Shown here: in pieces, positions 13,872 to 62,268 of the stretch
How the letters are laid out: the number at the start of each line of letters is the position of its first letter
Numbering within the stretch: the first letter of the stretch is position 1
Assembly (NCBI GenBank): GCA_028767165.1
Contig: JARACJ010000006.1
Span: forward strand, 259,580 to 323,579
Source: Proteobacteria bacterium DTSAM18
Lineage (GTDB): Bacteria > Myxococcota_A > UBA796 > GCA-2862545
Reading direction: 5' to 3'
Length of the DNA stretch: 64,000 bases
Translations under genes and position numbers: made by a program
Notes under the pieces: model-generated
The model's input: only the letters and a program-made list of their open reading frames with translations
Told to the model about the DNA's origin: nothing
The model's database searches: none

Positions 13872-15536
13872 TCAGCGAAGCAGGCCGCGCCGCACCGCCG
13901 ACAGGAACGCCACCGCCGACAGCCCGTACATCACGAGCGACCCCACGGGCAGCTTGCGGAACCAGGTGAGGGGCTCGGTGAGCATCCAGGTGCCGAGCGC
14001 CAGCAGGGCGACCGTCAGGAGCGTGAAGAGCGCCCGGTTGACCCGGCGATCGGTGAGCGCCTCCTGCTCCGGCGAGGTGACCCGCTTGATCTCCATGCGG
14101 ACCCGTTGCGCGTCCAGGTCGTCCAGGAACTGGCCGAACGACACCGGCAGCCTGCGCAGCATGCTCCCCAGGGTGAGCCCGAGGTACATCAGCTCGCCCT
14201 GCATCTTCCCGAGATCGACCCGCTCGGCCAGCAGCCGACGGATGTAGGGCTCGGCCGCCGCAATGGGGTCGACCTCCGGCAGCAGGGTCTTGGCCAGGCC
14301 CTCGGTGGTGACCAGGGCCTTGAAGAACATCGTGTAGGCCTGGGGGATGCGGGCGCCGTGCTTGGCGGCCTCCCTGGCCAGGTCGACCACGAAGGGGCCC
14401 ATCTGGATGTCGGACAGGGTGCGACCGGACCAGTGTCGCTCCATCAGCTCCATCACGTCCCGCTCGACCTGGGCGTAGTCCACCCGCCGCGTCTTCACGG
14501 CGATGTCGAAGAACAGGCGGGTGAGGCTGCGGTAGTCGCCGCGCTGCAGGGCGAAGATGATGAGGATGATGTCGTTGCGCATCTCGGTGGTGAGGCGCCC
14601 CATCATCCCGAAGTCGAGCAGGCCCACGCGGCCGTCGTCGAGCACCATCACGTTGCCCGGGTGCAGATCCCCGTGGAAGAAGCCGTGAAGGAACAGCATG
14701 TCGTAGGCCACCTTGAGGTAGCGCTCCCCCACCAGGGCCATGTCGTGGCCGGCGGCGCGGGCCTCCCGGATGCGCGTGCCGTGCAGCCGCTCCATGCACA
14801 GCACCGTGCCGCAGGACAGCCCGGCGACCACCGAGGGCACCCGCACGTCGGGGTTGTCGGCGAGGTTCGCCGCCACCCGCTCCATGTTGGCGGCCTCCTC
14901 GTGGAAGTCGAGCTCGGCCAGCATGGAGGTCTCGAACTCGGCGAGGACCCCCGGCAGGTCGAGGGAGTCGAGCTCGGGCAGCTCGGCGAGCATGCGGGCC
15001 ACGAGGAACTGCAGGATGTTCAGGTCGGAGCGGATGACCCGCCCGATGCCGGGCCGCTGGATCTTGAAGACCACGTCCGAGCCGTCCTGCAGCCGCGCCG
15101 CGTGCACCTGCGCGATGGACGCCGTGGCGAGGGGCTGGGGGTCGAAGTGCTCCACGCCCTGTCGCCAGTCGGGTCCCAGGGCATCGGCCAGCGCCTGTTC
15201 CACGACCCGCAGCGGCACCGAGGTGACCTGATCCTGCAGGCGCTGCAGCGCCCGCACGTAGTCCGGCGGCATGATGTCCGGACGGGTGGAGAGCACCTGC
15301 CCGAGCTTGACGAACGTGGGCCCGAGCTCGGAGAGCGCCATCACGAGGCGCTCCGGCGTGCTGATCAGGGGCTCCGCCTCGCTGCGCTTGGGCAGACCGG
15401 GGATCTGCACACCGGCCACGAGGAGACCGTAGCCGTGCCGCACGAGGATCTGCGCCACCTCCCGCAGCCGGCCGAGGTCGCGCACCCTGCGCGGCACCCC
15501 ACCCACCGTCTGCACGATGGGACGAACGATTCCCAT
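13872..15536 (-). CDS. ubiB: UbiB/ABC1-family atypical protein kinase (AarF/ADCK-like)
   Basis: ABC1 motifs 'FVKLGQVLSTRPDIMPPDYVRALQRLQD', 'HGDLHPGNVMV', 'DFG' and C-terminal TM helices. Start at the MGIVRP ATG with a GGGAGG RBS. Confidence 0.75.
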   Translation of the reverse strand: MGIVRPIVQTVGGVPRRVRDLGRLREVAQILVRHGYGLLVAGVQIPGLPKRSEAEPLISTPERLVMALSELGPTFVKLGQVLSTRPDIMPPDYVRALQRLQDQVTSVPLRVVEQALADALGPDWRQGVEHFDPQPLATASIAQVHAARLQDGSDVVFKIQRPGIGRVIRSDLNILQFLVARMLAELPELDSLDLPGVLAEFETSMLAELDFHEEAANMERVAANLADNPDVRVPSVVAGLSCGTVLCMERLHGTRIREARAAGHDMALVGERYLKVAYDMLFLHGFFHGDLHPGNVMVLDDGRVGLLDFGMMGRLTTEMRNDIILIIFALQRGDYRSLTRLFFDIAVKTRRVDYAQVERDVMELMERHWSGRTLSDIQMGPFVVDLAREAAKHGARIPQAYTMFFKALVTTEGLAKTLLPEVDPIAAAEPYIRRLLAERVDLGKMQGELMYLGLTLGSMLRRLPVSFGQFLDDLDAQRVRMEIKRVTSPEQEALTDRRVNRALFTLLTVALLALGTWMLTEPLTWFRKLPVGSLVMYGLSAVAFLSAVRRGLLR

Positions 15537-15618
15537 GGACGCCTCCCTGTGCCCAACGTGGTACCAAGACGGAAGCGGAAGATCACCCCCAAGCGCCGCG
15601 CGAACGGAAAGAACGCAG

Positions 15619-16749
15619 ATGTCCTCCAACGAACCGCCCCAGATCCCCGAGGAATCCCTCCCGGAGATGCCGCTGTCGAAGGAGCAGGGCTACCTGCTCA
15701 CCGCGAGCGCGCTGCTGGTCGCAACGGTCGCAGGTGGCGCGGCCCTCGCCTACACCAAGCCCGTGGCCGTTCCCTTCGTGCTCTCGCTGCTGATCTCGTA
15801 CCTGGTGGGCCCCATGGTCGACTGGATGCAGCGCCGGTTCCGCTTCCCCAAGGCCCTCGCCCTGCTCGTCGCCTTCCTCGTCGCGGCGCTGTTCATCACG
15901 CTCATCGTGATGCTGATCACCAGCAGCGCCCGGGGCCTGTCCACCCGGGCCGACTTCTACTCCATGCGCATCGAGGCGATGATCGCCGGCCTCACCGACT
16001 TCCTCGCGAGCATGCCGTCGGGGATGGTCCCCGACTCCTGGCTCCAGGGTGAGTTCTCCGTGCAGGAGATCGTCGAGCTGTGGGATGTCGGCTCGGTCGT
16101 CGGAGCCCTGCAGACCGCCGCCGGCAGCGTGCTCCAGGCCGCCTCCAAGCTCGTGGCCAACGCCCTGCTGGTGCTGTTGTTCTCCGCCTTCCTGCTGGCC
16201 CGCCGCCGTCCGGACGAGAAGCGCTCCGAGTTCTTCGCCGACATCAACCGCCGCATCGGCGCCTACCTGTCCACCAAGTTCCTCACCAGCGCCTCCACCG
16301 GCCTGCTCACGGGCGTGCTCCTGGCCATCATCGGGGTGGATCTGGCCTTCGTCTTCGGGCTGCTGGCCTTCCTGCTCAACTTCATCCCGTCCATCGGCTC
16401 CATCATCGCCGTGTTCCTGCCGCTGCCCATCGTCCTGCTGCAGTTCGACAACCTCGGCATGGTGCTCCTGGCCCTGCTCCTTCCCGGCAGCATCCAGTTC
16501 CTGATCGGCAACGTGCTCGAGCCCAAGATCATGGGCGACAACCTCGACCTGCACCCCGTCACCGTGCTGATGGGCCTGCTGTTCTGGGGCATGATCTGGG
16601 GCCCCGTCGGGGCGCTGCTGTCCACGCCGCTCATCGCGGTCATCAAGATCGTGCTGGTGCACATCGAGTTCACGCGGCCCATCGGGGAGCTGCTCGCCGG
16701 GCGGTTGCCGCAGGCGGAAGACGACAGCGCACCCTTGTCGCCATCGTGA
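15619..16749 (+). CDS. AI-2E family transporter (PerM/UPF0118 membrane protein)
   Basis: Multi-pass membrane protein with the AI-2E family architecture. Start at the MSSNEPPQ ATG at 15619. Confidence 0.7.
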   Translation: MSSNEPPQIPEESLPEMPLSKEQGYLLTASALLVATVAGGAALAYTKPVAVPFVLSLLISYLVGPMVDWMQRRFRFPKALALLVAFLVAALFITLIVMLITSSARGLSTRADFYSMRIEAMIAGLTDFLASMPSGMVPDSWLQGEFSVQEIVELWDVGSVVGALQTAAGSVLQAASKLVANALLVLLFSAFLLARRRPDEKRSEFFADINRRIGAYLSTKFLTSASTGLLTGVLLAIIGVDLAFVFGLLAFLLNFIPSIGSIIAVFLPLPIVLLQFDNLGMVLLALLLPGSIQFLIGNVLEPKIMGDNLDLHPVTVLMGLLFWGMIWGPVGALLSTPLIAVIKIVLVHIEFTRPIGELLAGRLPQAEDDSAPLSPS

Positions 16750-53282: not shown

Positions 53283-54578
53283 TCAGGGCTCGATGGAGAG
53301 CTCCCAGGAGGTGTCGCGCATCGAGGTGTCGGTGGGACGGTCGCCGAAGTCGGGGATGTTCACCTGGAACTCGGCCACGTTGTTGCGGTAGTTGTTCTCC
53401 GCAATCTGCTGGCCGGGGTTGACCTCCATGCGCACGGTGTAGTCGCCGGGTGCGATGTCGGTGACGTCGAGCATGGAGCAGGTGGTGTCGCCCCAGTACC
53501 AGGCAGCCGCGTAGCCACGGGTGAGGCCCTGGTTCATGCCCGCGACGGGAACGTCGCCGTAGACGCTCTCGGGTGCCGTGGGCAGGTACTCGAGGCGGTC
53601 GAAGAGCAGCCAGTCGATGTCGCGGGTGAGGACCACGTTGCCGCTGCCGTCGATGAGCTCCACGCGGACGAAGTCGTTCACGAGGGAGAAGCCGGTGAGG
53701 CAGGCCTCCTCACTGAAGAGGGCCTCGACGTCCTGCTCGTTGTACTCGGCACCGAGGTAGGGCGTGGCGCTGGCGTTGCGGAGGTGCAGGGTACCGGCGC
53801 CGGTGTTGGCCACGCGGCCCAGGAAGCCGAGCAGGTGACGGTAGCCGGGCTGATCGACACAGCCAGCCACCACGGAGCAATCGCCAGGTGCGATGAACGC
53901 GGGGTGGGGAATCCAGGCGGACTCCTCAGCCCAGGGACCATCGATCCACAGGTCGGGCTCCTGGCAGATCTGGGCGATCACGTTGCCGTCGGCGTCTTCC
54001 TGCGTGGCGCAGGTGGAGCCGTAGGGGCAGCAGTAGTCGCCGCACTGCTGGTTGGAGGGGCACTGGTTGCGAGCCACGCACTCCTCGAGACGATCGGGAG
54101 CGGGGTGGTCGAAGCAGAGCTGGTTGCCGGGGCAGGCATCGCACATGCAGACGTCGCCGGTGCCGTCGCCGTCCTCATCTGCCTGATCGGGGTTGCGATC
54201 GAAGGGGCAGTTGTCGCACTCGTCGCCGAACTCGTCGCCATCGGCGTCGAGCTGTTGCGGGTTGTAGAACGACGGGCAGTTGTCGACGTCGTCCCAGCGG
54301 CCGTCGCCGTCGGAGTCGAGGCGGGGCTCGGCATCGCAGGCGTCGCCGATGCCATCGAGGTCGGAGTCGTCCTGGCCACCGTTGGGGATGTCGGGGCAGT
54401 TGTCGAGGGCGTCGGGCACGCCATCGCGGTCGGCGTCGCCGGCGTACAGCTCACCGAGGTTGATGTCGGGTGCCGAACCGCAGGCGGCGAGACCCAGAAC
54501 GGATGCAATGATCGCAAGTTGGAATGCGCGCACGTGTGACTCCGTGTGCCGAGATGGAAAGACGACGGAATCATACAT
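53283..54578 (-). CDS. Secreted lipoprotein with thrombospondin type-3 (calcium-binding) repeats, a Cys-rich segment and a C-terminal lysyl-oxidase-like domain
   Basis: TSP3 repeats '[64 protein letters not shown]'. C-terminal '[40 protein letters not shown]' resembles the lysyl-oxidase fold. A GTG start at 54533 ([20 protein letters not shown] lipobox) is likely. Confidence 0.6.
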
Positions 54579-54655: not shown

Positions 54656-56758
54656 TCAGTCGAGGTTCTCCAGCTCCTCGTCGAGCAGCGCCGCCAGTTC
54701 GTCGAGATCCAGGTCACCATCGGTCTCCGACGCGTCGCTCCAGGCACCATCCGGCAACAGGTCCGACAGATGGGAGGCGAGCAGATCCACCTGGGGGTAC
54801 TCGAAGAGGAGCGTGGCGGGAAGCTGCTGTCCCACGGCATCCGACAGGAACTCGGCGAGCTGGACCGCCTGCACGGAGTCGATGCCGATGTCGCGGAAGG
54901 TGGCGTCCGAGGCGAGGTGGGCGCGCCCGAGCCAGTGCTGCAGGTGCTCCTGGAGCCGTCCGAGGACCGCCTGGCGGCGGGGCAGGTCGGGCATGGAGGC
55001 CAGATCCGTCCAGTGCTCGGCGCGGGGCGCCTCGGCGGGCCGATCCACGTGCCGATCCAGCACCACGGGGAGCTGGCCTGCCTGCAGGGCCTCGCGGATC
55101 CTGCGGCGCATGATCTTCCCCGAGCTCGTCTTGAACAGGCTTCGCTGCTTCACGAGCACCACCCGATCCGGCAGCACGCCACGATCGGCGATCCGCTCGG
55201 TGACGCCGACGACCACGTCGTCGAGGTGCTCGGCGGCGCGGTCGTACACCTCGGCGACCACGGTGAGGGTCTCCCCCTGGGGACCCTCCTCGGCGAAGGC
55301 CGCCACACAGCTCGGCCGGATGAGCGTGGACCCCTGCTGGGCGCTCCACTCCAGATCCTGCGGGTAGAAGTTCTGCCCTCGCAGGATGACGATGTCCTTG
55401 AGCCGACCGGTGACGTACACGGTGCCGCCCCGGACGAAGCCCAGATCCCCCGTACGCAACCAGCTGCCGTTCTTCTCGCCCTCGATGGCGGCGGCGAAGC
55501 CCTCCTCGGTCTCCTCCGGACGCGCCCAGTATCCGCGGGCACAGGTGGGTCCCCCCACCCACAGCTCACCGACCTCGTCTTCGGCGCAGGCGATGCAGCT
55601 GTCGGGGTGCACGGCCCGCACCATCGTGGGCTTCACGGGCACGCCACAGCCGGCGATGGGCCGGGCATTGGCGTGGCCCTCGGGCAGCACGACCACCTTG
55701 TGCTGCTCCAGCGCCGCGCCGTCCACCCACAGGAAGTGGGCGATGGTGGGCGCCGGCTCCTTGGAGATCACCGCGGTGGCCTCCGACATGCCGTAGGCGT
55801 GGGTCATCGTGGTGGGCGACAGGCCGGCGACGGCGAACGCCTCGTAGAACGCCACCTCGGTGTCGCGGCGGATGGGCTCGGCCCCGTTGAGGGCCACCTT
55901 CCAGCACGACAGATCCAGTGCCGCCCGCTCCTCCGGCGTGCTCCGTGCCACGAGGTAGTCGAACGCGAAGTTCGGCGCGGGCGCGTGGGTGCCACGGTGC
56001 CGATCGATCGCCTCGAGCCAGCGCATCGGACGGCGCAGGAAGTCCATGGGGTCGAGCAGCACGCCTTCGAAGCCCTTCCACAGGGGCATGAACACGCCGT
56101 AGACGAGCCCGAGGTCGTGGAACGTGGGCAGCCAGCTGACCATGACGGCGTCCGGGCCGTGGGAGAAGCCGCGGTCGAAGGTGAGCAGGTTCACCATGAG
56201 GTTGTCGTGGCCCACCATCACGCCCTTGGGCGTGGAGGTGCTGCCGCTCGTGTACTGCAGGTAGGCGAGCTCCTCCGGCAGAGGGAGTCGACGATCCGGG
56301 TCGGCGGGGGGCAGCCGGCCGTCGGTGCACAGCCAGGGAAGATCGGCCAGATCCTCCGACATCGACACCACGGCCTGCATCTCCTCGAGGTTGGCCCCCA
56401 CGGTACAGGCCAGCTCGATGCCGCCGTCGGCCGCGATGGCCTCGAGCTTCGGCAGCTCGTGACGGGCGCGGTGGGCCACCGGCGGCTGCAGTGGCACGGC
56501 GAGCACGCCGGCCCACATGCACCCGAGAAGGGCGGCCACGTAGTCGAGGCCCTGGGGGTACAGCAGCAGCACGCGGCTACCGGGCTCGCAGCTCGCGGCG
56601 ATGCCGGAGGCCACCCGTCCGGCCTTGTCGTACAGCTCGGAGAACGTCCAGGACACCTCTCCCTCGTCGCCGGGCACCACGTAGGTGAACGCGGTGGCGT
56701 CGGGGCGAGTGGAGGCGTGGTGGGCGAGGGCGTGCAGCAGGGTGGCGTGGGGGGTCAA
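54656..56758 (-). CDS. Fatty acyl-AMP ligase (FAAL) fused to a C-terminal acyl-carrier (phosphopantetheine-binding) domain
   Basis: FAAL signature 'LQYTSGSTSTPKGVMVGHDNLMVNL'. C-terminal PP-binding 'FRDIGIDSVQAVQL'. Confidence 0.8.
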   Translation of the reverse strand: MTPHATLLHALAHHASTRPDATAFTYVVPGDEGEVSWTFSELYDKAGRVASGIAASCEPGSRVLLLYPQGLDYVAALLGCMWAGVLAVPLQPPVAHRARHELPKLEAIAADGGIELACTVGANLEEMQAVVSMSEDLADLPWLCTDGRLPPADPDRRLPLPEELAYLQYTSGSTSTPKGVMVGHDNLMVNLLTFDRGFSHGPDAVMVSWLPTFHDLGLVYGVFMPLWKGFEGVLLDPMDFLRRPMRWLEAIDRHRGTHAPAPNFAFDYLVARSTPEERAALDLSCWKVALNGAEPIRRDTEVAFYEAFAVAGLSPTTMTHAYGMSEATAVISKEPAPTIAHFLWVDGAALEQHKVVVLPEGHANARPIAGCGVPVKPTMVRAVHPDSCIACAEDEVGELWVGGPTCARGYWARPEETEEGFAAAIEGEKNGSWLRTGDLGFVRGGTVYVTGRLKDIVILRGQNFYPQDLEWSAQQGSTLIRPSCVAAFAEEGPQGETLTVVAEVYDRAAEHLDDVVVGVTERIADRGVLPDRVVLVKQRSLFKTSSGKIMRRRIREALQAGQLPVVLDRHVDRPAEAPRAEHWTDLASMPDLPRRQAVLGRLQEHLQHWLGRAHLASDATFRDIGIDSVQAVQLAEFLSDAVGQQLPATLLFEYPQVDLLASHLSDLLPDGAWSDASETDGDLDLDELAALLDEELENLD

Positions 56759-56767
56759 GCCGGCACC

Positions 56768-58183
56768 TCAGAACTGGAAGTAGATGAAGTCTTCGCTGAC
56801 GTCGCGGTGGAAGATGAACATGGCCACGACGGCCACGGACATGAAGGTGGTCTGGGCCGGGAGGAGCCAGCCGGATGCCTTCAGCCGCGGGATGACGTGA
56901 TCCTCTACCGCGTAGGACAGGTTGATGGGCAGGGTTCCTGCCACGGCCATGGAGAACACCACCGTGGCGGCCACGAGCTCTTCGGTGGTGGCCGACAGCC
57001 AGGGCTGGCTGAAGTGCTGGAACACCCGCTCCATCGAGACCTCCCGGAACATCACGCCGGTGGGCTGCAGCACCACGAAGGTGTGCAGGGGCCAGGCGAT
57101 GAGCGGGGCGGTCCAGTGCTCCCGGATCCGCAGCGGGATCGCGGGGGTCGCGAAGGTGTAGATCGCCATCCACAGGCCGTTGTACAGGCCCAGGCAGATG
57201 AAGTTCCACGACGCGCCGTGCCACAGGCCGATGAGGAGGAAGGTGACCATCAGGGAGAGGAAGATGCGCCCCGGACCGGCCTTTCCCGCCCGGAGCAAGG
57301 GCGTGTAGACGTAGTCGCCCACCCAGCTCGACAGCGACATGTGCCACTTCCGCCAGAACTCGGGGGTGGTGAGGCTGTTGTAGGGCCGGTCGAAGTTGCG
57401 CACGAGCTCGAAGCCCAGCATCCGGGCGGTGCCGCGGGCCATGTCGGTGTAGCCGCCGATGTCCGCGAGCATCTGGACGCCGAAGGCAATGCCCGCCGCC
57501 ATCACCATCACGAAGGCGGGATCCTTGGCCATGTAGACCTCGTCCACGTAGGGGGCGAGGCCGTCGGCGATCACCACCTTCTTGAACGCGCCCCACAGGG
57601 CCAGCGTGAGGCCGCTCATGATCTTCTGGGTGTCGAAGTGGCGGGGACGCTCCACCTGGGGAAGCAGGCTGGACGCCCGCTCGATGGGGCCGGCGACGAG
57701 CTGGGGGAAGAAGGAGACGTACACGAGGTAGTCGAGCAGGTTCTTCCGGGGCTCGATGCGGCCCTTGTAGACGTCGATCGTGTAGGACAGGGTCTGGAAG
57801 GTGTAGAAGCTGATGCCCACCGGCAGGATGAGGTTCAGGGTCCACAGGTTCAGGTCGAGCCCGAGGGCCGACAGCGCGGCACCGAGGTTCTCGGTGAAGA
57901 AGTTGAAGTACTTGAACAGCCCGAGCATGCCGAGGTTGCCCGCCAGCGACAGCCCCAGGAACCACTTCTTCTGCGCCGGGCGCTCCGCCATGGCCCGGCC
58001 CACGTTGTAGTCGAGGAACGCCGAGAAGTAGAGCAGGCCCAGGAACCAGGGGTGCACCCAGCCGTAGAACATGGCGCTGGCCACGAGCAGCAGCACGTTC
58101 TGCCAGGTGCGCTTGCCGACGCCCCAGTACAGGACGAACACGATGAGCATGAAGGCCAGGAAGCTCATCTGGACGAAGGTCAT
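56768..58183 (-). CDS. MBOAT-family membrane-bound O-acyltransferase (DltB/AlgI-like)
   Basis: 11 TM-type topology with conserved MBOAT His region and AlgI/DltB-like sequence throughout. Start overlaps the upstream gene's stop (ATGA). Confidence 0.85.
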   Translation of the reverse strand: MTFVQMSFLAFMLIVFVLYWGVGKRTWQNVLLLVASAMFYGWVHPWFLGLLYFSAFLDYNVGRAMAERPAQKKWFLGLSLAGNLGMLGLFKYFNFFTENLGAALSALGLDLNLWTLNLILPVGISFYTFQTLSYTIDVYKGRIEPRKNLLDYLVYVSFFPQLVAGPIERASSLLPQVERPRHFDTQKIMSGLTLALWGAFKKVVIADGLAPYVDEVYMAKDPAFVMVMAAGIAFGVQMLADIGGYTDMARGTARMLGFELVRNFDRPYNSLTTPEFWRKWHMSLSSWVGDYVYTPLLRAGKAGPGRIFLSLMVTFLLIGLWHGASWNFICLGLYNGLWMAIYTFATPAIPLRIREHWTAPLIAWPLHTFVVLQPTGVMFREVSMERVFQHFSQPWLSATTEELVAATVVFSMAVAGTLPINLSYAVEDHVIPRLKASGWLLPAQTTFMSVAVVAMFIFHRDVSEDFIYFQF

Positions 58184-61100
58184 GGGGTGTTCCTCTCGGA
58201 GTGGGCGGCAAGAAGCTGACGGCGGCCACCTTCATCCACGATGTCGATCTGGTCAAGGAGCAGGAAGGGCCCGTCGGCGGGCGAGTGCACCTGCACCGTC
58301 CAGGGGCCGGCCACACGACCGGTGAGCTGCAGCGTGGCCACGTGGGTCTCCCCCACCTTCTCGAAGTACACCGTCTGCCCCTCCACCTGCAGGCTGAACG
58401 GCCGGGTGGACTTGTTGGCCCCGAAGGACCTCGCGATCACGCGAACGGCCACCTGGTCGCCGGACCAGGGCTCGGCGGCCGTGAGCTCGGCGGTGGTGCC
58501 CGGGTAGACCCAGTACACATCGCGCTCCTCCGCTGGCAGCGGGAAGGACTCGTCCAGGGACAGGGACACGTCCTGGGGCCCGTCACCTCGGGGACGCACA
58601 CCCACCGCCTGGCCCACGTGCAGGTAGCAGGCCTCGCAGCCGGTGCGGAAGTCCTTGCGATCGGTGGTGACCGGCAGAGGCTGTCCTGCCTCGAGCACCT
58701 CCAGCGGCGACCAGGGTCCCAGACCGTTCTTCACCAGCACCGAGTTGCTCACCGGCCACAGCTGGAACCAGCGGAACTCCCAGTGGTGCTCGCCCACCCG
58801 ACGGGGCTCGGACTCCGGCGCCGGAAGCTGGGGTTGCCCACTGCGGACGGCGGACTGCAACGGCCAGGTACCGAGCACCGGTCCGTCCACGAACAGACCG
58901 GTGCCGGTCTGCTCCTGCAGGGCCAGCGAGGTGCCCGCCACCTGCTCGGGCTCGGGCTCGGTCTGGTGCAGGCTGATGCGATCGATCCGGTAGTAGGACC
59001 GCCGGCCGGGATGGCGCAGGATGATCCGCAGATCCTCCCGACCGGGGGCCAGGGGTGCCGGCAGGTCGGCAGCCCAGCTCAGCTGGCCGTAGGCGCCCAT
59101 CCGGAGCTGCTCCGACAGGATCCGGCGCGCCCCGGCGTACAGCTCGAAGGCCACGGGCTCATCCCCCTGCTTGGCGGGCGCCGACAGCTCCACGTCGACC
59201 CGGCGCACGCCGTCGACCATCTGCCGGCTGGCGGCGGGGTCGACCGTGAGCTCCACCTCGTCGCCCGGGTACAGCCACAACATGCCCCGCAGGGGGGTAT
59301 TGCCGGGACGGAAGATGCGGTCGCACAGGCGGGAGGGATCGAGCGCCAGGGAGTAGGTACGGCCGTTCTTCAGCGGTGCCGTCGTGTCGGAGGCCGTGAA
59401 GTACACCGACGCCCCCTGGTGGCAGACGTACCCGCCGCCGGTCTGCCGCACCGGGGTGCAGTTGGTGTGGGGGTTGGGCAGGGGCACGCCGTCTTCGAGC
59501 ACCTGCACCGGAGAACACTGGTGGGGCCGGGGGAAGCGGGGGTTGGGCAGGTCGGACAGCCCCTGCAGCTCGGTCAGCGTGAACGCGCCCAGCTTGTGGG
59601 GACCGCGGATGGGACGCGCATCGGGTCGCAGGGGCGGTGGGTCCGAGAAGAAGTGTGCCTGCAGGTGGGTGTCGTCCGGGTTGCCGCCCACGACCCGCAC
59701 CGTGCGGGGGGTGAACGCCTCCGAGGTGCCCACCAGCTCCAGGGTGTAGGGAGGCGCACCGAGGCTCAGGCCCTGGACGAAGACCGGGTCGTCGGAGCGG
59801 TTGTGCACCGACAGCGCCCACTGGCCGTCCTGGGGCACCACGAGGGACTGCCCTCCCCGCCACGCGAAGCCCTGGGGCGAGAGCTGCACCTGCTGACCAT
59901 CCTGCAGGGAGACCTCGATGGCGTCCGGATCGACGGCGGCCCGCAGGATCACGTCGGCACGAAAGGCGGATGCCCCGTGGGTCCAACCGCCCTCCGGCGC
60001 GGTGAAGGTGAGCGACCCGCCGGCGGGCAGCCAGCGGCCTGCCTTGTCCCGGGGCGCCGCAGGATCGAAGGTCCAGGAGAGCGACGGCGGCGCGGTGGGA
60101 CCGATGTAGACCAGCTCGTCGTCGCGCAGCGCGATGGCGGGCTCGCAGGGAGGCGAGTCCCCCAGGAAGACCCGCGGCAGAGGCTCTCCGCCGGCGGTCA
60201 CGGTCCAGGGCAGGGCCTCCCCGGGCGGTGCGGCCCGGGTGAGCGTGACGCTCGGGACGGGCTGTCCCTGCACGACCCAGCGGCAGGCACCGTCGGGACG
60301 CAGGTCGGCCGCCGTCCACGTACCGGACGCCCCGTCCGCCCGCAGCGACAGGGTGGGCCGATCCTCCTCGGCCGCCACGACCGACACCCCCGACCGGGTC
60401 ATGAGTCCCAGGCTGCGGATGCCCTGGCCGAGGGCCTCGGTGAAGAACCGCGCGCCCCGGGGGGACATGTGCCGCATGTCCTGGAACATGGAGGCGTCCA
60501 TGTGCAGGGAGCGCAGGTCGAGGTAGCTGAGCCGCGCCTCCCGCATCACCTCGATGGACTGTGCCTCCACCTCCGTCGGCACGCGATCGTTGTCGGTGTT
60601 GGAGGGTGGAAAGGGCGTGCGCACGAGCAGCAGGTTGGCCCCGCCCTGCTGGGCGAGGGCCCCGAGATCGAGCAGCAGGGAGTCATCTCGGACCGACAGG
60701 CCCCGCACGTCGATCTCCTCCACCGAGTCGAGGCCGAGGCCCGTTCCGTCGCCCCGGTGCAGCTCGTAGAGCATGTTCTCGTCGGCGAAGACCACGTCGT
60801 TGGCCTTGTCGGCCAGGTTGCCCGCCCCCTGGATGCCTCCGCGGGGGTGGAAGCCGAGCTGCACCACCTTGTCGCGCCAGCTCTTCACCCACGCATCCCG
60901 CACCGCGCCCGCCTGGGCCTTCAGGTACAGCCACCGGTAGGTCCAGGGGTTGTCGGTGTGCAGCACCTTCGCGGAGATCACCGGCTCGTCGTCACCGAGC
61001 TGGGCGATGAGCCGGTCGACGTTCTGATCCTTGAGGATCTCGGGCGTGACCATCGTGGTGAGCGCGCCGACCACCACGACCACCCGGGGCTCGTACCCTT

Positions 61101-61419
61101 CACCGAAGACCCGGTTCTTGAGGATCGCGTACCAGTGCGCAGCCGTGGCGTTGGGCACCGTGAGCATGACCACGTTGCGCTCGGGTACGCCGAGGGTGTC
61201 CGCGAGGACCTTCGGGTTGACGTTGGTGCGCACCAGCGACGAGCCCAGGACGATGACGTCCGGCTCTCCCTGCCGCAGCTTGCCCTGCATGTCGCGGATG
61301 TGGCTGTCGACGAGGCTGGCCTCGCGCACGACCCCGTAGCCGCCCCCCAGGATCAGGACGGGCAGCACCAGGGCGGCGATCTTCGCGGCAAGGGGCGCGG
61401 TGACCTTGCGGTCGGGCAT
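58180..61419 (-). CDS. Giant DltD-like protein of 1079 aa. N-terminal TM anchor plus a DltD/SGNH-like domain with a 'GSS(L)...NP' motif, then a ~700-aa uncharacterised C-terminal extension.
   Basis: 'VIVLGSSLVRTNVNP' matches the S. aureus DltD 'YGSSELGKDDPFNP' catalytic region. Translationally coupled to the MBOAT gene. Confidence 0.6.
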   Translation of the reverse strand: MPDRKVTAPLAAKIAALVLPVLILGGGYGVVREASLVDSHIRDMQGKLRQGEPDVIVLGSSLVRTNVNPKVLADTLGVPERNVVMLTVPNATAAHWYAILKNRVFGEGYEPRVVVVVGALTTMVTPEILKDQNVDRLIAQLGDDEPVISAKVLHTDNPWTYRWLYLKAQAGAVRDAWVKSWRDKVVQLGFHPRGGIQGAGNLADKANDVVFADENMLYELHRGDGTGLGLDSVEEIDVRGLSVRDDSLLLDLGALAQQGGANLLLVRTPFPPSNTDNDRVPTEVEAQSIEVMREARLSYLDLRSLHMDASMFQDMRHMSPRGARFFTEALGQGIRSLGLMTRSGVSVVAAEEDRPTLSLRADGASGTWTAADLRPDGACRWVVQGQPVPSVTLTRAAPPGEALPWTVTAGGEPLPRVFLGDSPPCEPAIALRDDELVYIGPTAPPSLSWTFDPAAPRDKAGRWLPAGGSLTFTAPEGGWTHGASAFRADVILRAAVDPDAIEVSLQDGQQVQLSPQGFAWRGGQSLVVPQDGQWALSVHNRSDDPVFVQGLSLGAPPYTLELVGTSEAFTPRTVRVVGGNPDDTHLQAHFFSDPPPLRPDARPIRGPHKLGAFTLTELQGLSDLPNPRFPRPHQCSPVQVLEDGVPLPNPHTNCTPVRQTGGGYVCHQGASVYFTASDTTAPLKNGRTYSLALDPSRLCDRIFRPGNTPLRGMLWLYPGDEVELTVDPAASRQMVDGVRRVDVELSAPAKQGDEPVAFELYAGARRILSEQLRMGAYGQLSWAADLPAPLAPGREDLRIILRHPGRRSYYRIDRISLHQTEPEPEQVAGTSLALQEQTGTGLFVDGPVLGTWPLQSAVRSGQPQLPAPESEPRRVGEHHWEFRWFQLWPVSNSVLVKNGLGPWSPLEVLEAGQPLPVTTDRKDFRTGCEACYLHVGQAVGVRPRGDGPQDVSLSLDESFPLPAEERDVYWVYPGTTAELTAAEPWSGDQVAVRVIARSFGANKSTRPFSLQVEGQTVYFEKVGETHVATLQLTGRVAGPWTVQVHSPADGPFLLLDQIDIVDEGGRRQLLAAHSERNTP

Positions 61420-61485: not shown

Positions 61486-62268
61486 TCAACCGTCCACCAG
61501 CACGCCGGCCCCCTCGGAGCCCGTCGCGGCGCCCGGTGGCAGCGGTGGATCGAAGGCCAGGCGGTCCCTGCCCGCGCACTTCGCCTGGTACAGGGCCTGG
61601 TCGGCCCGCTGCACCAGGGACGCCAGGGACTCGCCCGGATGGCGAAGCGCCACGCCCGCCGACGTGCTCACCGACACGTGGCCTCCCCCGAGCTCCAGCG
61701 AGCCCTCGACCCGGGACCGTCGGGCGATCCGGACCGCGCGCTCCCAAGGGAGCCCCCGGAGCACCACCGCAAACTCGTCGCCGCCCCAGCGCGCCACCGG
61801 GTCACCGTCCCGAAGACCCGCACGCAGCCGGCCCGCCACCCACCGCAGCACGGTGTCGCCGCCCTGGTGTCCGTGGCGGTCGTTGATGTCCTTGAAGCGA
61901 TCCACGTCGAGCAGCATCAGGACGACGGGGCCATCACCGGTGGCCAGCAGCTCCTCGAGTGCGCCCTCGAGGGCACGTCGGTTCCACAGATCCGTGAGGA
62001 AGTCCCGCTGGGCCTGCCGGGCGAGCTGTGCGATGTGCTGGTCGGCATGACGCAGCCGGTAGCCGGCCTGCTCCATGAGCTGCTCCATCCGGTCGAGGCG
62101 CGCCTGCAGGCCGCTCACCGCGTGGATCAGCCCCAGCTCTCCACGGGCGAGGCGCTGCACCTCCTCCCGTGCACCTTGCAGGTCCGCCACCACCAGTTCG
62201 ACGAGCCTGCGTCCCTCCGCCAGTCCGGCGGGCAGGTTCTCGGCGTTGGATGGATCTCGAAACGGCAT
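61486..62268 (-). CDS. GGDEF-domain diguanylate cyclase with an N-terminal coiled-coil
   Basis: 'RWGGDEFAV' GGDEF active site and 'DVDRFKDINDRHGHQGGD'. Confidence 0.8.
   Translation of the reverse strand: MPFRDPSNAENLPAGLAEGRRLVELVVADLQGAREEVQRLARGELGLIHAVSGLQARLDRMEQLMEQAGYRLRHADQHIAQLARQAQRDFLTDLWNRRALEGALEELLATGDGPVVLMLLDVDRFKDINDRHGHQGGDTVLRWVAGRLRAGLRDGDPVARWGGDEFAVVLRGLPWERAVRIARRSRVEGSLELGGGHVSVSTSAGVALRHPGESLASLVQRADQALYQAKCAGRDRLAFDPPLPPGAATGSEGAGVLVDG

What the first reader, a model, noticed from the sequence alone, without database searches (positions are those of the whole stretch)
54656..61419. dlt-like three-component O-acylation operon predicted to use a fatty acyl group instead of D-alanine
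Three tightly packed minus-strand genes encode a DltD-like protein of 1079 aa, an MBOAT (DltB/AlgI-like) and a FAAL fused to an acyl-carrier domain. The first two overlap by ATGA and the last two are 9 nt apart. This is the DltA+DltC (activation plus carrier), DltB (MBOAT) and DltD logic of teichoic-acid D-alanylation, but the adenylating enzyme is a fatty acyl-AMP ligase. The prediction is that a fatty acyl-ACP is handed through the MBOAT to a periplasmic DltD-like transferase to lipidate an extracytoplasmic polymer or protein. Such a system is not a textbook pathway in Myxococcota-type Gram-negatives. The donor chemistry is inferred from the FAAL signature, and the acceptor is unknown.
Basis: partly seen in the sequence, partly recalled or inferred. 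Interest (0 to 1): 0.85.

Follow-up and report, generated by a model that had tools for sequence, protein, structure and literature searches.

The report
FAAL-ACP-fed MBOAT-SGNH envelope acylation operon
Three tightly packed genes in an uncultured myxobacterium look like a relay that activates a fatty acid in the cytoplasm and passes it through a membrane acyltransferase to a periplasmic, probably sugar-binding, transferase; this combination has not been described for bacterial envelope acylation.

Summary
Three minus-strand genes (58180-61419, 56768-58183, 54656-56758) have an ATGA overlap and a 9-nt gap. They encode a 1079-aa membrane-anchored protein, an MBOAT and a FAAL fused to a carrier domain.

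The adenylating enzyme is FAAL-type, not DltA-type. The MBOAT's best solved relative is DltB, but it ends in FIYFQF. That is the FxYxxF acyl-shuttle tail of PatA/AlgI-type MBOATs.

The large protein matches no Pfam or NCBIfam model. Its first 345 residues model as an SGNH fold, and the top Foldseek hits are all DltD. Ser61 and His317 are invariant. The rest is three homologous beta-sandwich modules that resemble carbohydrate-binding modules.

MBOAT sits directly upstream of the FAAL-ACP ortholog in 8 of 10 loci. The SGNH protein is nearby in nine.

Caveats: SGNH-MBOAT pairs also occur without FAAL-ACP, and one FAAL-ACP ortholog lies away from its MBOAT.

Best reading: a hybrid of Dlt (carrier-protein donor) and PatAB/AlgIJX (fused shuttle tail, glycan acceptor) that probably O-acylates a periplasmic glycan with a fatty acid. 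The hand-off, the acyl group and the acceptor are all inferred. I rate it a new variant of a known kind.

The parts
58180..61419 (-). Gene 1: 1079-aa membrane-anchored periplasmic acyltransferase candidate (TM anchor, SGNH/DltD-like domain, three CBM-like modules)
   Evidence: ORF with GC3 0.91. No Pfam or NCBIfam hit. 26 homologs at 30-38% identity.
61327..61392 (-). N-terminal transmembrane anchor (residues ~10-31, preceded by R4, K5, K13). N-in topology is inferred, which puts the rest in the periplasm.
   Evidence: The hydropathy scan finds a single TM segment at residues 5-32. The model shows a helix at 10-37.
60385..61287 (-). SGNH-fold, DltD-like catalytic domain (residues ~45-345). Candidate nucleophile Ser61 in G59-S-S61; Asp314-x-x-His317.
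59740..60363 (-). Beta-sandwich module R1 (residues 353-560)
58951..59739 (-). Beta-sandwich module R2 (residues 561-823), the module kept in the shorter distant relatives
   Evidence: hhalign R1 vs R2 97%, R2 vs R3 96%. tblastn of short relatives matches query residues ~586-800.
58189..58896 (-). Beta-sandwich module R3 (residues 842-1077)
56768..58183 (-). Gene 2: MBOAT (471 aa), AlgI/DltB type, with conserved His281 and His322
   Evidence: Pfam MBOAT 8.6e-27. NCBIfam LTA_dltB 136.6 bits, below the 375-bit cutoff. Best PDB relative DltB 6bug, 1e-20; query H281 and H322 pair with His residues of DltB in the WHMSLS and WHG motifs.
56771..56788 (-). C-terminal FIYFQF acyl-shuttle motif (FxYxxF), candidate acyl-Tyr468
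   Evidence: Translation. DF[IVL]YFQF terminates all 12 related MBOATs examined. It is the only FxYxxF-stop in the 64-kb window. The role of the motif is described in PMC12148441.
55061..56758 (-). Gene 3, FAAL domain (residues 1-566)
   Evidence: AMP-binding 2.7e-64. FAAL models are the best NCBIfam hits. Gap-poor alignment over residues 7-566 to the olefin-synthase FAAL 7r7g, including the insertion region 333-369.
54767..54958 (-). Gene 3, carrier (PP-binding) domain (residues 601-664), phosphopantetheine site Ser628 in GIDS
   Evidence: PP-binding 3.6e-10. Motif position.
54656..54766 (-). Gene 3, acidic C-terminal tail ending ...DELAALLDEELENLD, plus the stop codon
   Evidence: Translation. 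The motif (D/E)xLAALLxxELxDL is conserved at the C-terminus of most related FAAL-ACPs.

Best explanation
The three genes encode one trans-membrane acyl relay.

(1) In the cytoplasm the FAAL domain adenylates a carboxylic acid, most likely a medium- or long-chain fatty acid. It loads the acid as a thioester on the phosphopantetheine arm of its own fused carrier domain (Ser628).

(2) The acyl-carrier domain docks on the cytoplasmic funnel of the MBOAT, as DltC docks on DltB. The MBOAT (His322) moves the acyl group onto Tyr468 of its own C-terminal FIYFQF tail on the periplasmic side, as shown for PatA.

(3) The tail delivers the acyl group to Ser61 of the membrane-anchored SGNH/DltD-like domain of the 1079-aa protein.

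(4) That domain transfers the acyl group to a hydroxyl of an extracytoplasmic acceptor. The acceptor is probably a glycan held by the three CBM-like beta-sandwich modules, as in AlgX.

Shown here: gene arrangement, domain identities, conserved catalytic residues and motifs, predicted folds, and synteny. Inferred: every transfer step, the chain length, and the acceptor.
For: Tight packing: ATGA overlap and a 9-nt gap.

FAAL identity: FAAL models and FAAL structures are the best hits, and the alignment runs through the FAAL insertion region. The fused carrier has GIDS, Ser628.

MBOAT: the closest solved relative is the carrier-protein-dependent DltB, and query H281 and H322 pair with His residues of DltB. 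The FIYFQF terminus is conserved in all 12 related MBOATs examined and matches the acyl-Tyr shuttle motif of MBOAT-SGNH pathways (PMC12148441).

Synteny: the MBOAT is immediately upstream of the FAAL-ACP ortholog in 8 of 10 loci with enough flank (window, L001, L003, L007, L009, L010, L059, L061). In L008 they are 5 kb apart. The SGNH protein is adjacent or one gene away in nine loci (the window and eight relatives). An SGNH-family gene overlaps the MBOAT start by 4 nt even in the distant locus L063, where the SGNH protein is 26% identical.

No other acyl-ACP-consuming enzyme (KS, C domain, PlsC-type) is conserved next to the FAAL-ACP in these loci.
Against: SGNH-family plus MBOAT pairs exist without any FAAL or carrier gene nearby. 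These are L063 (MBOAT 57% identical), L020 and L022 (45%). The MBOAT therefore need not depend on a carrier protein, and the FAAL-linked MBOATs are only slightly more similar to one another (59-67%).

In L060 the FAAL-ACP ortholog has no MBOAT within 9 kb. In L012 the MBOAT has no FAAL-ACP in the 6 kb fetched downstream of it. In L059 no SGNH gene lies within 7.5 kb.

Related FAAL-ACPs (38-43% identical) work in other contexts, for example next to a ketosynthase.

All FAAL scores are below the curated equivalog cutoffs. FAAL-family enzymes with fused carriers can activate non-fatty acids; FadD22 is an example from my own knowledge.

No known bacterial MBOAT of this type has been shown to carry a long acyl chain. 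CBM-like jelly rolls are generic folds (Eph receptor domains score equally).

No polysaccharide-synthesis genes lie nearby.
Confidence: 0.5

Rival explanations
1. The 1079-aa SGNH protein and the MBOAT form an ordinary acyl-CoA-dependent (probably acetyl-CoA) glycan O-acetylation pair of the PatA/PatB or AlgI/AlgJ/AlgX kind. The FAAL-ACP is a neighbour that feeds a different pathway, such as a lipid or a secondary metabolite.
For: The pair occurs without FAAL-ACP in L063, L020 and L022, with MBOATs 45-57% identical and the same DF[IV]YFQF tail. PMC12148441 states that MBOAT/SGNH pathways with a fused shuttle motif use acyl-CoA and lack a carrier protein. In L060 the FAAL-ACP ortholog is separate from the MBOAT. 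The FAAL-ACP family is large and mostly not MBOAT-linked.
Against: The MBOAT to FAAL-ACP spacing is about 9-70 nt on the same strand in 8 of 10 ortholog loci, although the FAAL-ACP proteins have diverged to 52-57% identity. In the window the start is a TTG 9 nt after the MBOAT stop. A stand-alone FAAL-ACP needs a downstream acyl-transferring partner, and no other candidate is conserved beside it.
Confidence: 0.25
2. The relay works as proposed, but the activated acid is not an ordinary fatty acid. It could be an aryl, hydroxy, amino or short-chain acid, which would make this a Dlt-like decoration with a small acyl group.
For: The scores are below the curated cutoffs of every specific FAAL equivalog. 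Some source annotations of homologs read 'aryl carrier-like protein'. FAAL-family ligases fused to carriers, such as FadD22 with p-hydroxybenzoate, are known (my own knowledge). The DltB tunnel passes a small acyl group (my own knowledge).
Against: Every one of the 14 best solved relatives is a fatty-acid-activating FAAL (olefin synthase, Legionella and E. coli FAALs, FadD23/28/32).
Confidence: 0.12
3. The relay acylates a lipid or a protein at the outer face of the inner membrane rather than a glycan. Examples would be lysolipid re-acylation (an Aas-like function) or protein lipidation.
For: The FAAL has weak similarity to Aas (PRK08633, 100 bits). In L059 a ceramidase-family gene overlaps the FAAL-ACP stop. 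An ABC1/UbiB-type kinase lies between the SGNH and MBOAT genes in six of the related loci. Eukaryotic MBOATs acylate lipids and secreted proteins (my own knowledge).
Against: The FxYxxF tail and an SGNH partner are so far the hallmarks of glycopolymer acylation. Three CBM-like modules occupy two thirds of the partner protein.
Confidence: 0.1

Closest known systems
Dlt pathway (DltA, DltC, DltB, DltX, DltD) for D-alanylation of teichoic acids in Firmicutes
   Same: Both use adenylating enzyme, then carrier protein, then MBOAT, then a membrane-anchored SGNH transferase. The MBOAT's best solved relative is DltB. The SGNH domain's best Foldseek hits are DltD.
   Different: The ligase is a FAAL, not DltA. 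The carrier is fused to the ligase. There is no DltX microprotein; the FxYxxF shuttle motif is fused to the MBOAT. The MBOAT is below the DltB equivalog cutoff, and the SGNH protein has no PF04914 match. The SGNH protein carries ~730 extra residues of CBM-like modules. The host is a Gram-negative-type Myxococcota without teichoic acids.
PatA/PatB (peptidoglycan O-acetylation) and AlgI/AlgJ/AlgF/AlgX (alginate O-acetylation) MBOAT-SGNH systems
   Same: The MBOAT has a C-terminal FxYxxF acyl-Tyr shuttle tail and the conserved His. The partner is a periplasmic SGNH protein anchored by an N-terminal helix. As in AlgX, the SGNH domain is joined to carbohydrate-binding-type modules.
   Different: Those systems use acetyl-CoA and have no carrier protein (PMC12148441). 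Here a FAAL-ACP gene is translationally packed behind the MBOAT. The SGNH domain belongs to a separate family that Pfam does not cover.
Stand-alone FAAL-ACP loading modules of lipopeptide, polyketide and olefin pathways (olefin synthase loading didomain, nocuolin A FAAL-ACP, FadD22)
   Same: FAAL plus fused carrier architecture of ~700 aa. The best structural relative is the olefin-synthase FAAL (PMC12820801).
   Different: Those hand the acyl group to KS or C domains in the cytoplasm. Here no PKS or NRPS partner is present, and the conserved neighbour is an MBOAT.
Eukaryotic protein- and lipid-acylating MBOATs (HHAT, PORCN, GOAT, LPLATs)
   Same: An MBOAT would move a fatty acyl group to a substrate on the far side of the membrane (analogy only, my own knowledge).
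   Different: Those use acyl-CoA, have no SGNH partner or Tyr shuttle tail, and are only distantly related.

Membership tests
Dlt D-alanylation system | DltA-type D-alanine--carrier-protein ligase | tested here: not met
   The best NCBIfam hits are FAAL models (PRK05850 367 bits, PRK09192 329, FadD32 324). The generic amino-acid adenylation domain scores only 146 bits, and no DltA model is among the best 25. The best PDB relatives are all FAALs.
Dlt D-alanylation system | Free-standing DltC carrier protein | tested here: not met
   The carrier (PP-binding, residues 601-664, Ser628) is fused to the ligase.
Dlt D-alanylation system | DltB equivalog MBOAT (TIGR04091) | tested here: not met
   136.6 bits against a 375-bit cutoff. 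DltB is nevertheless the best solved relative at 1e-20.
Dlt D-alanylation system | DltD sequence family (PF04914) | tested here: not met
   No Pfam hit at E<=0.1 for the protein. A scan of 10 other family members gave only faint GDSL/SGNH hints (E 0.02-0.09) in three of them. A profile search against PDB sequences found nothing.
Dlt D-alanylation system | DltD-type fold and topology (N-terminal TM anchor, SGNH core with helical insert, Ser/His/Asp) | tested here: met
Dlt D-alanylation system | Separate DltX microprotein carrying FxYxxF | tested here: not met
   The only FxYxxF-stop in the 64-kb window is the MBOAT C-terminus.
Bacterial MBOAT-SGNH acyltransferase pairs (PatAB/AlgIJX type) | MBOAT with conserved catalytic His | tested here: met
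   Pfam MBOAT 8.6e-27. H281 and H322 are invariant in 9 relatives and pair with His residues of DltB.
Bacterial MBOAT-SGNH acyltransferase pairs (PatAB/AlgIJX type) | C-terminal FxYxxF acyl-shuttle hexapeptide on the MBOAT | tested here: met
   The protein ends FIYFQF*. DF[IVL]YFQF terminates all 12 related MBOATs examined. The motif is defined in PMC12148441.
Bacterial MBOAT-SGNH acyltransferase pairs (PatAB/AlgIJX type) | Adjacent, co-conserved extracytoplasmic SGNH partner | tested here: met
   The two genes overlap by 4 nt in the window and in L063. They are adjacent or one gene apart in the nine SGNH-bearing loci of the FAAL-linked clade (the window and eight relatives).
Bacterial MBOAT-SGNH acyltransferase pairs (PatAB/AlgIJX type) | Acyl-CoA donor, no carrier protein | not testable with these tools
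   Donor use needs biochemistry. The conserved FAAL-ACP neighbour argues for a carrier donor in this clade. Pairs without FAAL-ACP also exist.
Fatty acyl-AMP ligases (FAAL) | Closest to FAAL models and structures rather than acyl-CoA ligases | tested here: met
   Scores are below the curated cutoffs of the individual subfamily models, so it is a FAAL-type enzyme but not a named equivalog.
Fatty acyl-AMP ligases (FAAL) | FAAL-specific insertion in the N-terminal domain | tested here: met
   Residues ~333-369, between YGMSEAT and GCG, align with only a one-residue gap to the corresponding stretch of the olefin-synthase FAAL 7r7g. Acyl-CoA-ligase hits match only one side of this stretch, ending at residues 305-306 or starting at 370-372. 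The insertion is defined in PMC8460268 and PMC12820801.
Fatty acyl-AMP ligases (FAAL) | Transfers to holo-ACP, rejects CoA | not testable with these tools
   This needs an enzyme assay. A fused carrier with the GIDS motif is present.
Fatty acyl-AMP ligases (FAAL) | CDD cd05931 signature and predicted chain-length class | not tested
   CDD, FAALPred and AdenylPred are not available here.
AlgX-type SGNH plus carbohydrate-binding module transferases | Carbohydrate-binding module attached to the SGNH domain | tested here: inconclusive

The most novel reading that the evidence does not exclude
This would be the first bacterial MBOAT-SGNH pathway that carries a long-chain fatty acyl group. A dedicated FAAL-ACP would supply the acyl group. 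It would pass across the inner membrane through an acyl-tyrosine tail and lipidate a periplasmic or surface glycan. That would be a bacterial counterpart of Hedgehog, Wnt and ghrelin acylation by eukaryotic MBOATs. It would also be a second carrier-protein-dependent MBOAT system besides Dlt.
Probability: 0.35. Interest if true: 0.8.

Novelty: new variant of a known kind. Interest (0 to 1): 0.62.

Why it matters
Bacterial envelope polymers are known to receive small acyl groups (acetyl, D-alanyl, succinyl) by MBOAT-SGNH or AT3-SGNH relays. In the paper consulted (PMC12148441), Dlt is the only MBOAT-SGNH pathway described as using a carrier protein.

A FAAL-ACP-fed relay would show that the same machinery can be re-plumbed to a fatty-acid donor that bypasses CoA. 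It would predict a lipidated glycan, or another lipidated envelope molecule, in a poorly known clade of Myxococcota.

It would also give a natural hybrid (carrier donor plus fused Tyr-shuttle tail) for dissecting how MBOATs recognise donors.

Separately, the SGNH domain defines a sizeable family that Pfam does not cover: 1967 representatives at 50% identity. That family deserves a model.

Tried and rejected
- **Sequence models for the 1079-aa protein.** Pfam and NCBIfam gave nothing. A profile of its N-domain against PDB sequences gave only noise, with E>0.3. Fold prediction was needed.
- **afdb50 fold library.** It was not available.
- **Metagenome scan with the FAAL-ACP.** It returned 31 loci, all <=40% identical, and none has an MBOAT or SGNH relative. 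This is useful as a negative control but added no orthologs.
- **Second-tier FAAL-ACPs (41-43% identical).** Their contexts are unrelated: a ketosynthase neighbour, or no evident partner gene.
- **Conserved neighbours.** The GGDEF gene upstream (61486-62268) is absent from all related loci. The thrombospondin-repeat/lysyl-oxidase-like gene downstream (53283-54578) recurs only in L060. Neither is treated as part of the system. proC is conserved upstream but is ordinary lineage synteny.
- **Promoter and terminator scan.** It was uninformative: 0 promoter-like sites, and terminator-like sites at chance level.
- **Literature.** Seven full-text searches, five aimed at linking a FAAL or carrier protein to an MBOAT and two on Dlt/MBOAT in general, found no paper that links a FAAL to a bacterial MBOAT. 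Schultz et al. 2023 (PMC10664464) is not held.
- **Readings rejected.** A true dlt operon is rejected because the ligase is a FAAL and there is no DltC or DltX. A PKS/NRPS gene cluster is rejected because no such genes lie in the window and the context is housekeeping. A chance ORF arrangement is rejected on GC3 and the strong domain hits.


Full report
**1. The observation**

The window is ~70% GC, so long ORFs are common on every frame.

On the minus strand the order is:
- 58180-61419, 1079 aa
- 56768-58183, 471 aa
- 54656-56758, 700 aa

The first junction reads ccATGAcc, a 4-nt stop/start overlap. The second is TGA-ggtgccggc-TTG, a 9-nt gap. The TTG is the first possible start. It is needed because the AMP-binding domain already begins at residue 12.

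**2. The adenylating enzyme**

Pfam finds AMP-binding (2.7e-64) and PP-binding (3.6e-10, residues 601-664). In NCBIfam the best matches after a giant NRPS/PKS model are all fatty-acid--AMP ligases: PRK05850 at 367 bits, PRK09192 at 329, FadD32 at 324 and FadD21 at 319. The amino-acid adenylation domain reaches only 146 bits, and no DltA model is in the top 25. Every score is below the curated cutoff, so this is a FAAL-type enzyme rather than a named equivalog.

The best solved relatives are:
- the olefin-synthase FAAL 7r7g (2e-110)
- Legionella FAAL 3kxw
- FadD23, FadD32 and FadD28
- E. coli FAAL 3pbk

The alignment to 7r7g runs from residue 7 to 566 with only small gaps. It includes the stretch 333-369 between YGMSEAT and GCG, which corresponds to the FAAL-specific insertion. 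Acyl-CoA ligase hits match only one side of that stretch. The insertion as a FAAL hallmark is described in PMC8460268 and PMC12820801.

The carrier has the GIDS motif, Ser628. The protein ends in an acidic tail...DELAALLDEELENLD.

**3. The MBOAT**

Pfam gives MBOAT at 8.6e-27. The only NCBIfam hit is the DltB equivalog, at 136.6 bits and well under its 375-bit cutoff. The only solved relatives are DltB structures at 1e-20. Query H281 and H322 pair with His residues of DltB in the WHMSLS and WHG motifs.

According to PMC12148441, FxYxxF is the acyl-shuttle hexapeptide. In Dlt it sits on the microprotein DltX. In PatA and the other MBOAT/SGNH pathways it is fused to the MBOAT C-terminus, and its Tyr carries the acyl group to the catalytic Ser of the SGNH partner.

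DF[IVL]YFQF terminates all 12 related MBOATs I examined. It is the only FxYxxF-stop in the whole window.

**4. The 1079-aa protein**

No Pfam or NCBIfam model matches it. A word-indexed search of 5.8 billion proteins found only 26 relatives, 27-38% identical overall.

Their alignment shows an N-terminal hydrophobic anchor. It also shows an invariant G59-x-S61 and an invariant His317, which in the core clade sits in D314-M-R-H317.

Foldseek against the PDB ranks DltD structures (6pfx, 6o93, 7dxm, 3bma) as its top seven hits. They align over the full length with E from 2.8e-5 to 1.9e-3 and TM about 0.4. 'DltD-like' is therefore right for topology and fold, but not for sequence-family membership.

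An exhaustive profile search shows that this N-domain defines a family of 1967 representatives at 50% identity with E<=1e-3. Of these, 327 have E<=1e-30. Lengths run from about 220 aa (fragments) to 1138 aa. Pfam does not cover the family.

**5. Conservation of the arrangement**

All relatives come from uncultured Myxococcota MAGs, several of them mislabelled in GenBank.

For FAAL-ACP orthologs (52-57% identical) with enough flank, the arrangement is as follows:

| Arrangement | Loci |
|---|---|
| MBOAT directly upstream, same strand | window, L001(=L006), L003, L007, L009, L010, L059, L061 (8 of 10) |
| MBOAT 5 kb away | L008 |
| MBOAT absent within 9 kb | L060 |

For L060, an MBOAT ortholog (P0296, 66% identical) is recorded on a contig of the same length, 114,012 bp.

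The SGNH protein is directly upstream of the MBOAT in the window, L009 and L010. In L001, L003, L007, L008, L012 and L061 one gene separates them. That gene is annotated as ABC1/UbiB in L001, L003 and L061, and is an opposite-strand ORF of matching size and position in L007, L008 and L012. The SGNH protein is missing within 7.5 kb in L059.

The MBOATs are 59-66% identical and the FAAL-ACPs 53-56% identical. The SGNH proteins are only 35-38% identical (49% in the N-domain of L061), as expected for an extracytoplasmic partner.

As controls, FAAL-ACPs at 41-43% identity and 31 further FAAL loci at <=40% identity have no MBOAT or SGNH relative nearby. The MBOAT link is therefore specific to one clade.

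**6. Evidence that cuts the other way**

The SGNH-family plus MBOAT pair is broader than the triad:
- In L063 an 809-aa family member (26% identical) overlaps the start of an MBOAT (57% identical) by 4 nt, and no FAAL or carrier gene follows.
- L020 has three tandem family members beside an MBOAT at 45% identity, with methyltransferases.
- L022 also lacks a FAAL-ACP.
- Paralogs of the large protein in L004 and L011 have no MBOAT beside them.

The simplest history is an ancestral two-gene relay, probably acyl-CoA-fed, to which one clade added a FAAL-ACP. The small sequence distance between FAAL-linked MBOATs and the unlinked L063 MBOAT (59-67% versus 57%) means the donor switch is not visible in the MBOAT sequence. 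This keeps the 'unrelated neighbour' rival alive.

**7. Mechanism proposed**

1. The cytoplasmic FAAL adenylates a fatty acid and loads it on Ser628-phosphopantetheine.
2. The carrier docks on the MBOAT as DltC does on DltB.
3. His322 catalyses transfer to Tyr468 of the FIYFQF tail.
4. The tail swings to Ser61 of the anchored SGNH domain.
5. The SGNH domain esterifies a glycan held by modules R1-R3.

Steps 1-5 are inferred by homology with Dlt and PatAB (PMC12148441). Only the parts list and their conservation are shown here.

The closest solved FAALs all act on fatty acids. That is suggestive of a fatty-acid substrate, not proof. The acceptor is unknown. The window context is housekeeping, with ribonucleotide reductase, AspRS, RecQ, GpsA and proC, and has no polysaccharide cluster.

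**8. Comparison and novelty**

The system is not a dlt operon. The DltA, DltC, DltX, DltB-equivalog and PF04914 tests all fail.

It meets the defining features of bacterial MBOAT-SGNH pairs: the conserved His, the FxYxxF tail and an adjacent SGNH partner. It differs in having a conserved FAAL-ACP gene, whereas those pathways are described as lacking a carrier protein.

Seven full-text searches found no paper that links a FAAL to a bacterial MBOAT. The library is incomplete, so this is absence of evidence only.

I rate it a new variant of a known kind, with interest 0.62. It would score higher if the fatty-acyl hand-off were demonstrated.

Noticed in passing
window 54656-54766 (-); homologs P0027-P0083: The stand-alone FAAL-ACP family ends in a conserved acidic amphipathic motif, roughly (D/E)(D/E)xLAALLxAELxDL, at the extreme C-terminus. 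It is present both in the MBOAT-linked tier and in the 41-46% identical tier that is not next to an MBOAT. It may be a docking peptide for a shared partner.
   Followed up: partly
L001 13412-14752, L003 4379-5719, L061 6075-7475, L059 5448-6788; window 13872-15689 (-): In L001, L003 and L061 an ABC1/UbiB-type atypical kinase gene sits on the opposite strand between the SGNH gene and the MBOAT. In L059 it lies upstream of the MBOAT, separated from it by a YbjN gene. L007, L008 and L012 have an opposite-strand ORF of matching size in the same position. In this window the ABC1 gene is 40 kb away.
   Followed up: no
window 53283-54578 (-); L060 11692-12789: A thrombospondin-type-3-repeat plus lysyl-oxidase-like protein lies 77 nt downstream of the FAAL-ACP. 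A 38% identical homolog also lies near the FAAL-ACP ortholog in L060, the one locus without an MBOAT.
   Followed up: partly
L059 11127-11876: A ceramidase-family (PF05875) membrane protein gene overlaps the stop of the FAAL-ACP ortholog by 4 nt. This hints at a lipid connection in that genome.
   Followed up: no
L020 9779-19231 and 6411-7976: Three tandem paralogs of the SGNH-family protein (about 870-1050 aa each) lie beside a divergently oriented MBOAT (45% identical) and three SAM-methyltransferase genes, with no FAAL or carrier gene.
   Followed up: partly
L004 10001-18099; L011: Full-length paralogs of the 1079-aa protein occur without an MBOAT. In L004 the paralog is followed on the same strand by two unannotated genes and a class A penicillin-binding protein (Transgly + Transpeptidase). 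This is a weak hint toward peptidoglycan.
   Followed up: no
N-domain family: The SGNH-like N-domain defines a family of 1967 representatives at 50% identity that no Pfam model covers. Only faint GDSL/SGNH hints appear (E 0.02-0.09). One 361-aa member (L027) is not next to an MBOAT.
   Followed up: partly
loci L006, L008, L011, L012, L015, L017, L021: Several GenBank MAG records that carry this Myxococcota-type locus are labelled Alphaproteobacteria (isolate names HK-STAS-MYXO-xx), Enterobacteriaceae or Klebsiella pneumoniae. These are probably taxonomic mislabels.
   Followed up: no
window 61486-62268 (-): A GGDEF diguanylate cyclase gene lies 66 nt upstream of the large gene on the same strand. 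It is not conserved in any related locus.
   Followed up: partly
L022 5627-10009: A 1460-aa protein with 14 MopE-type putative metal-binding repeats (PF11617, 4.8e-131) lies near the SGNH-MBOAT pair.
   Followed up: no
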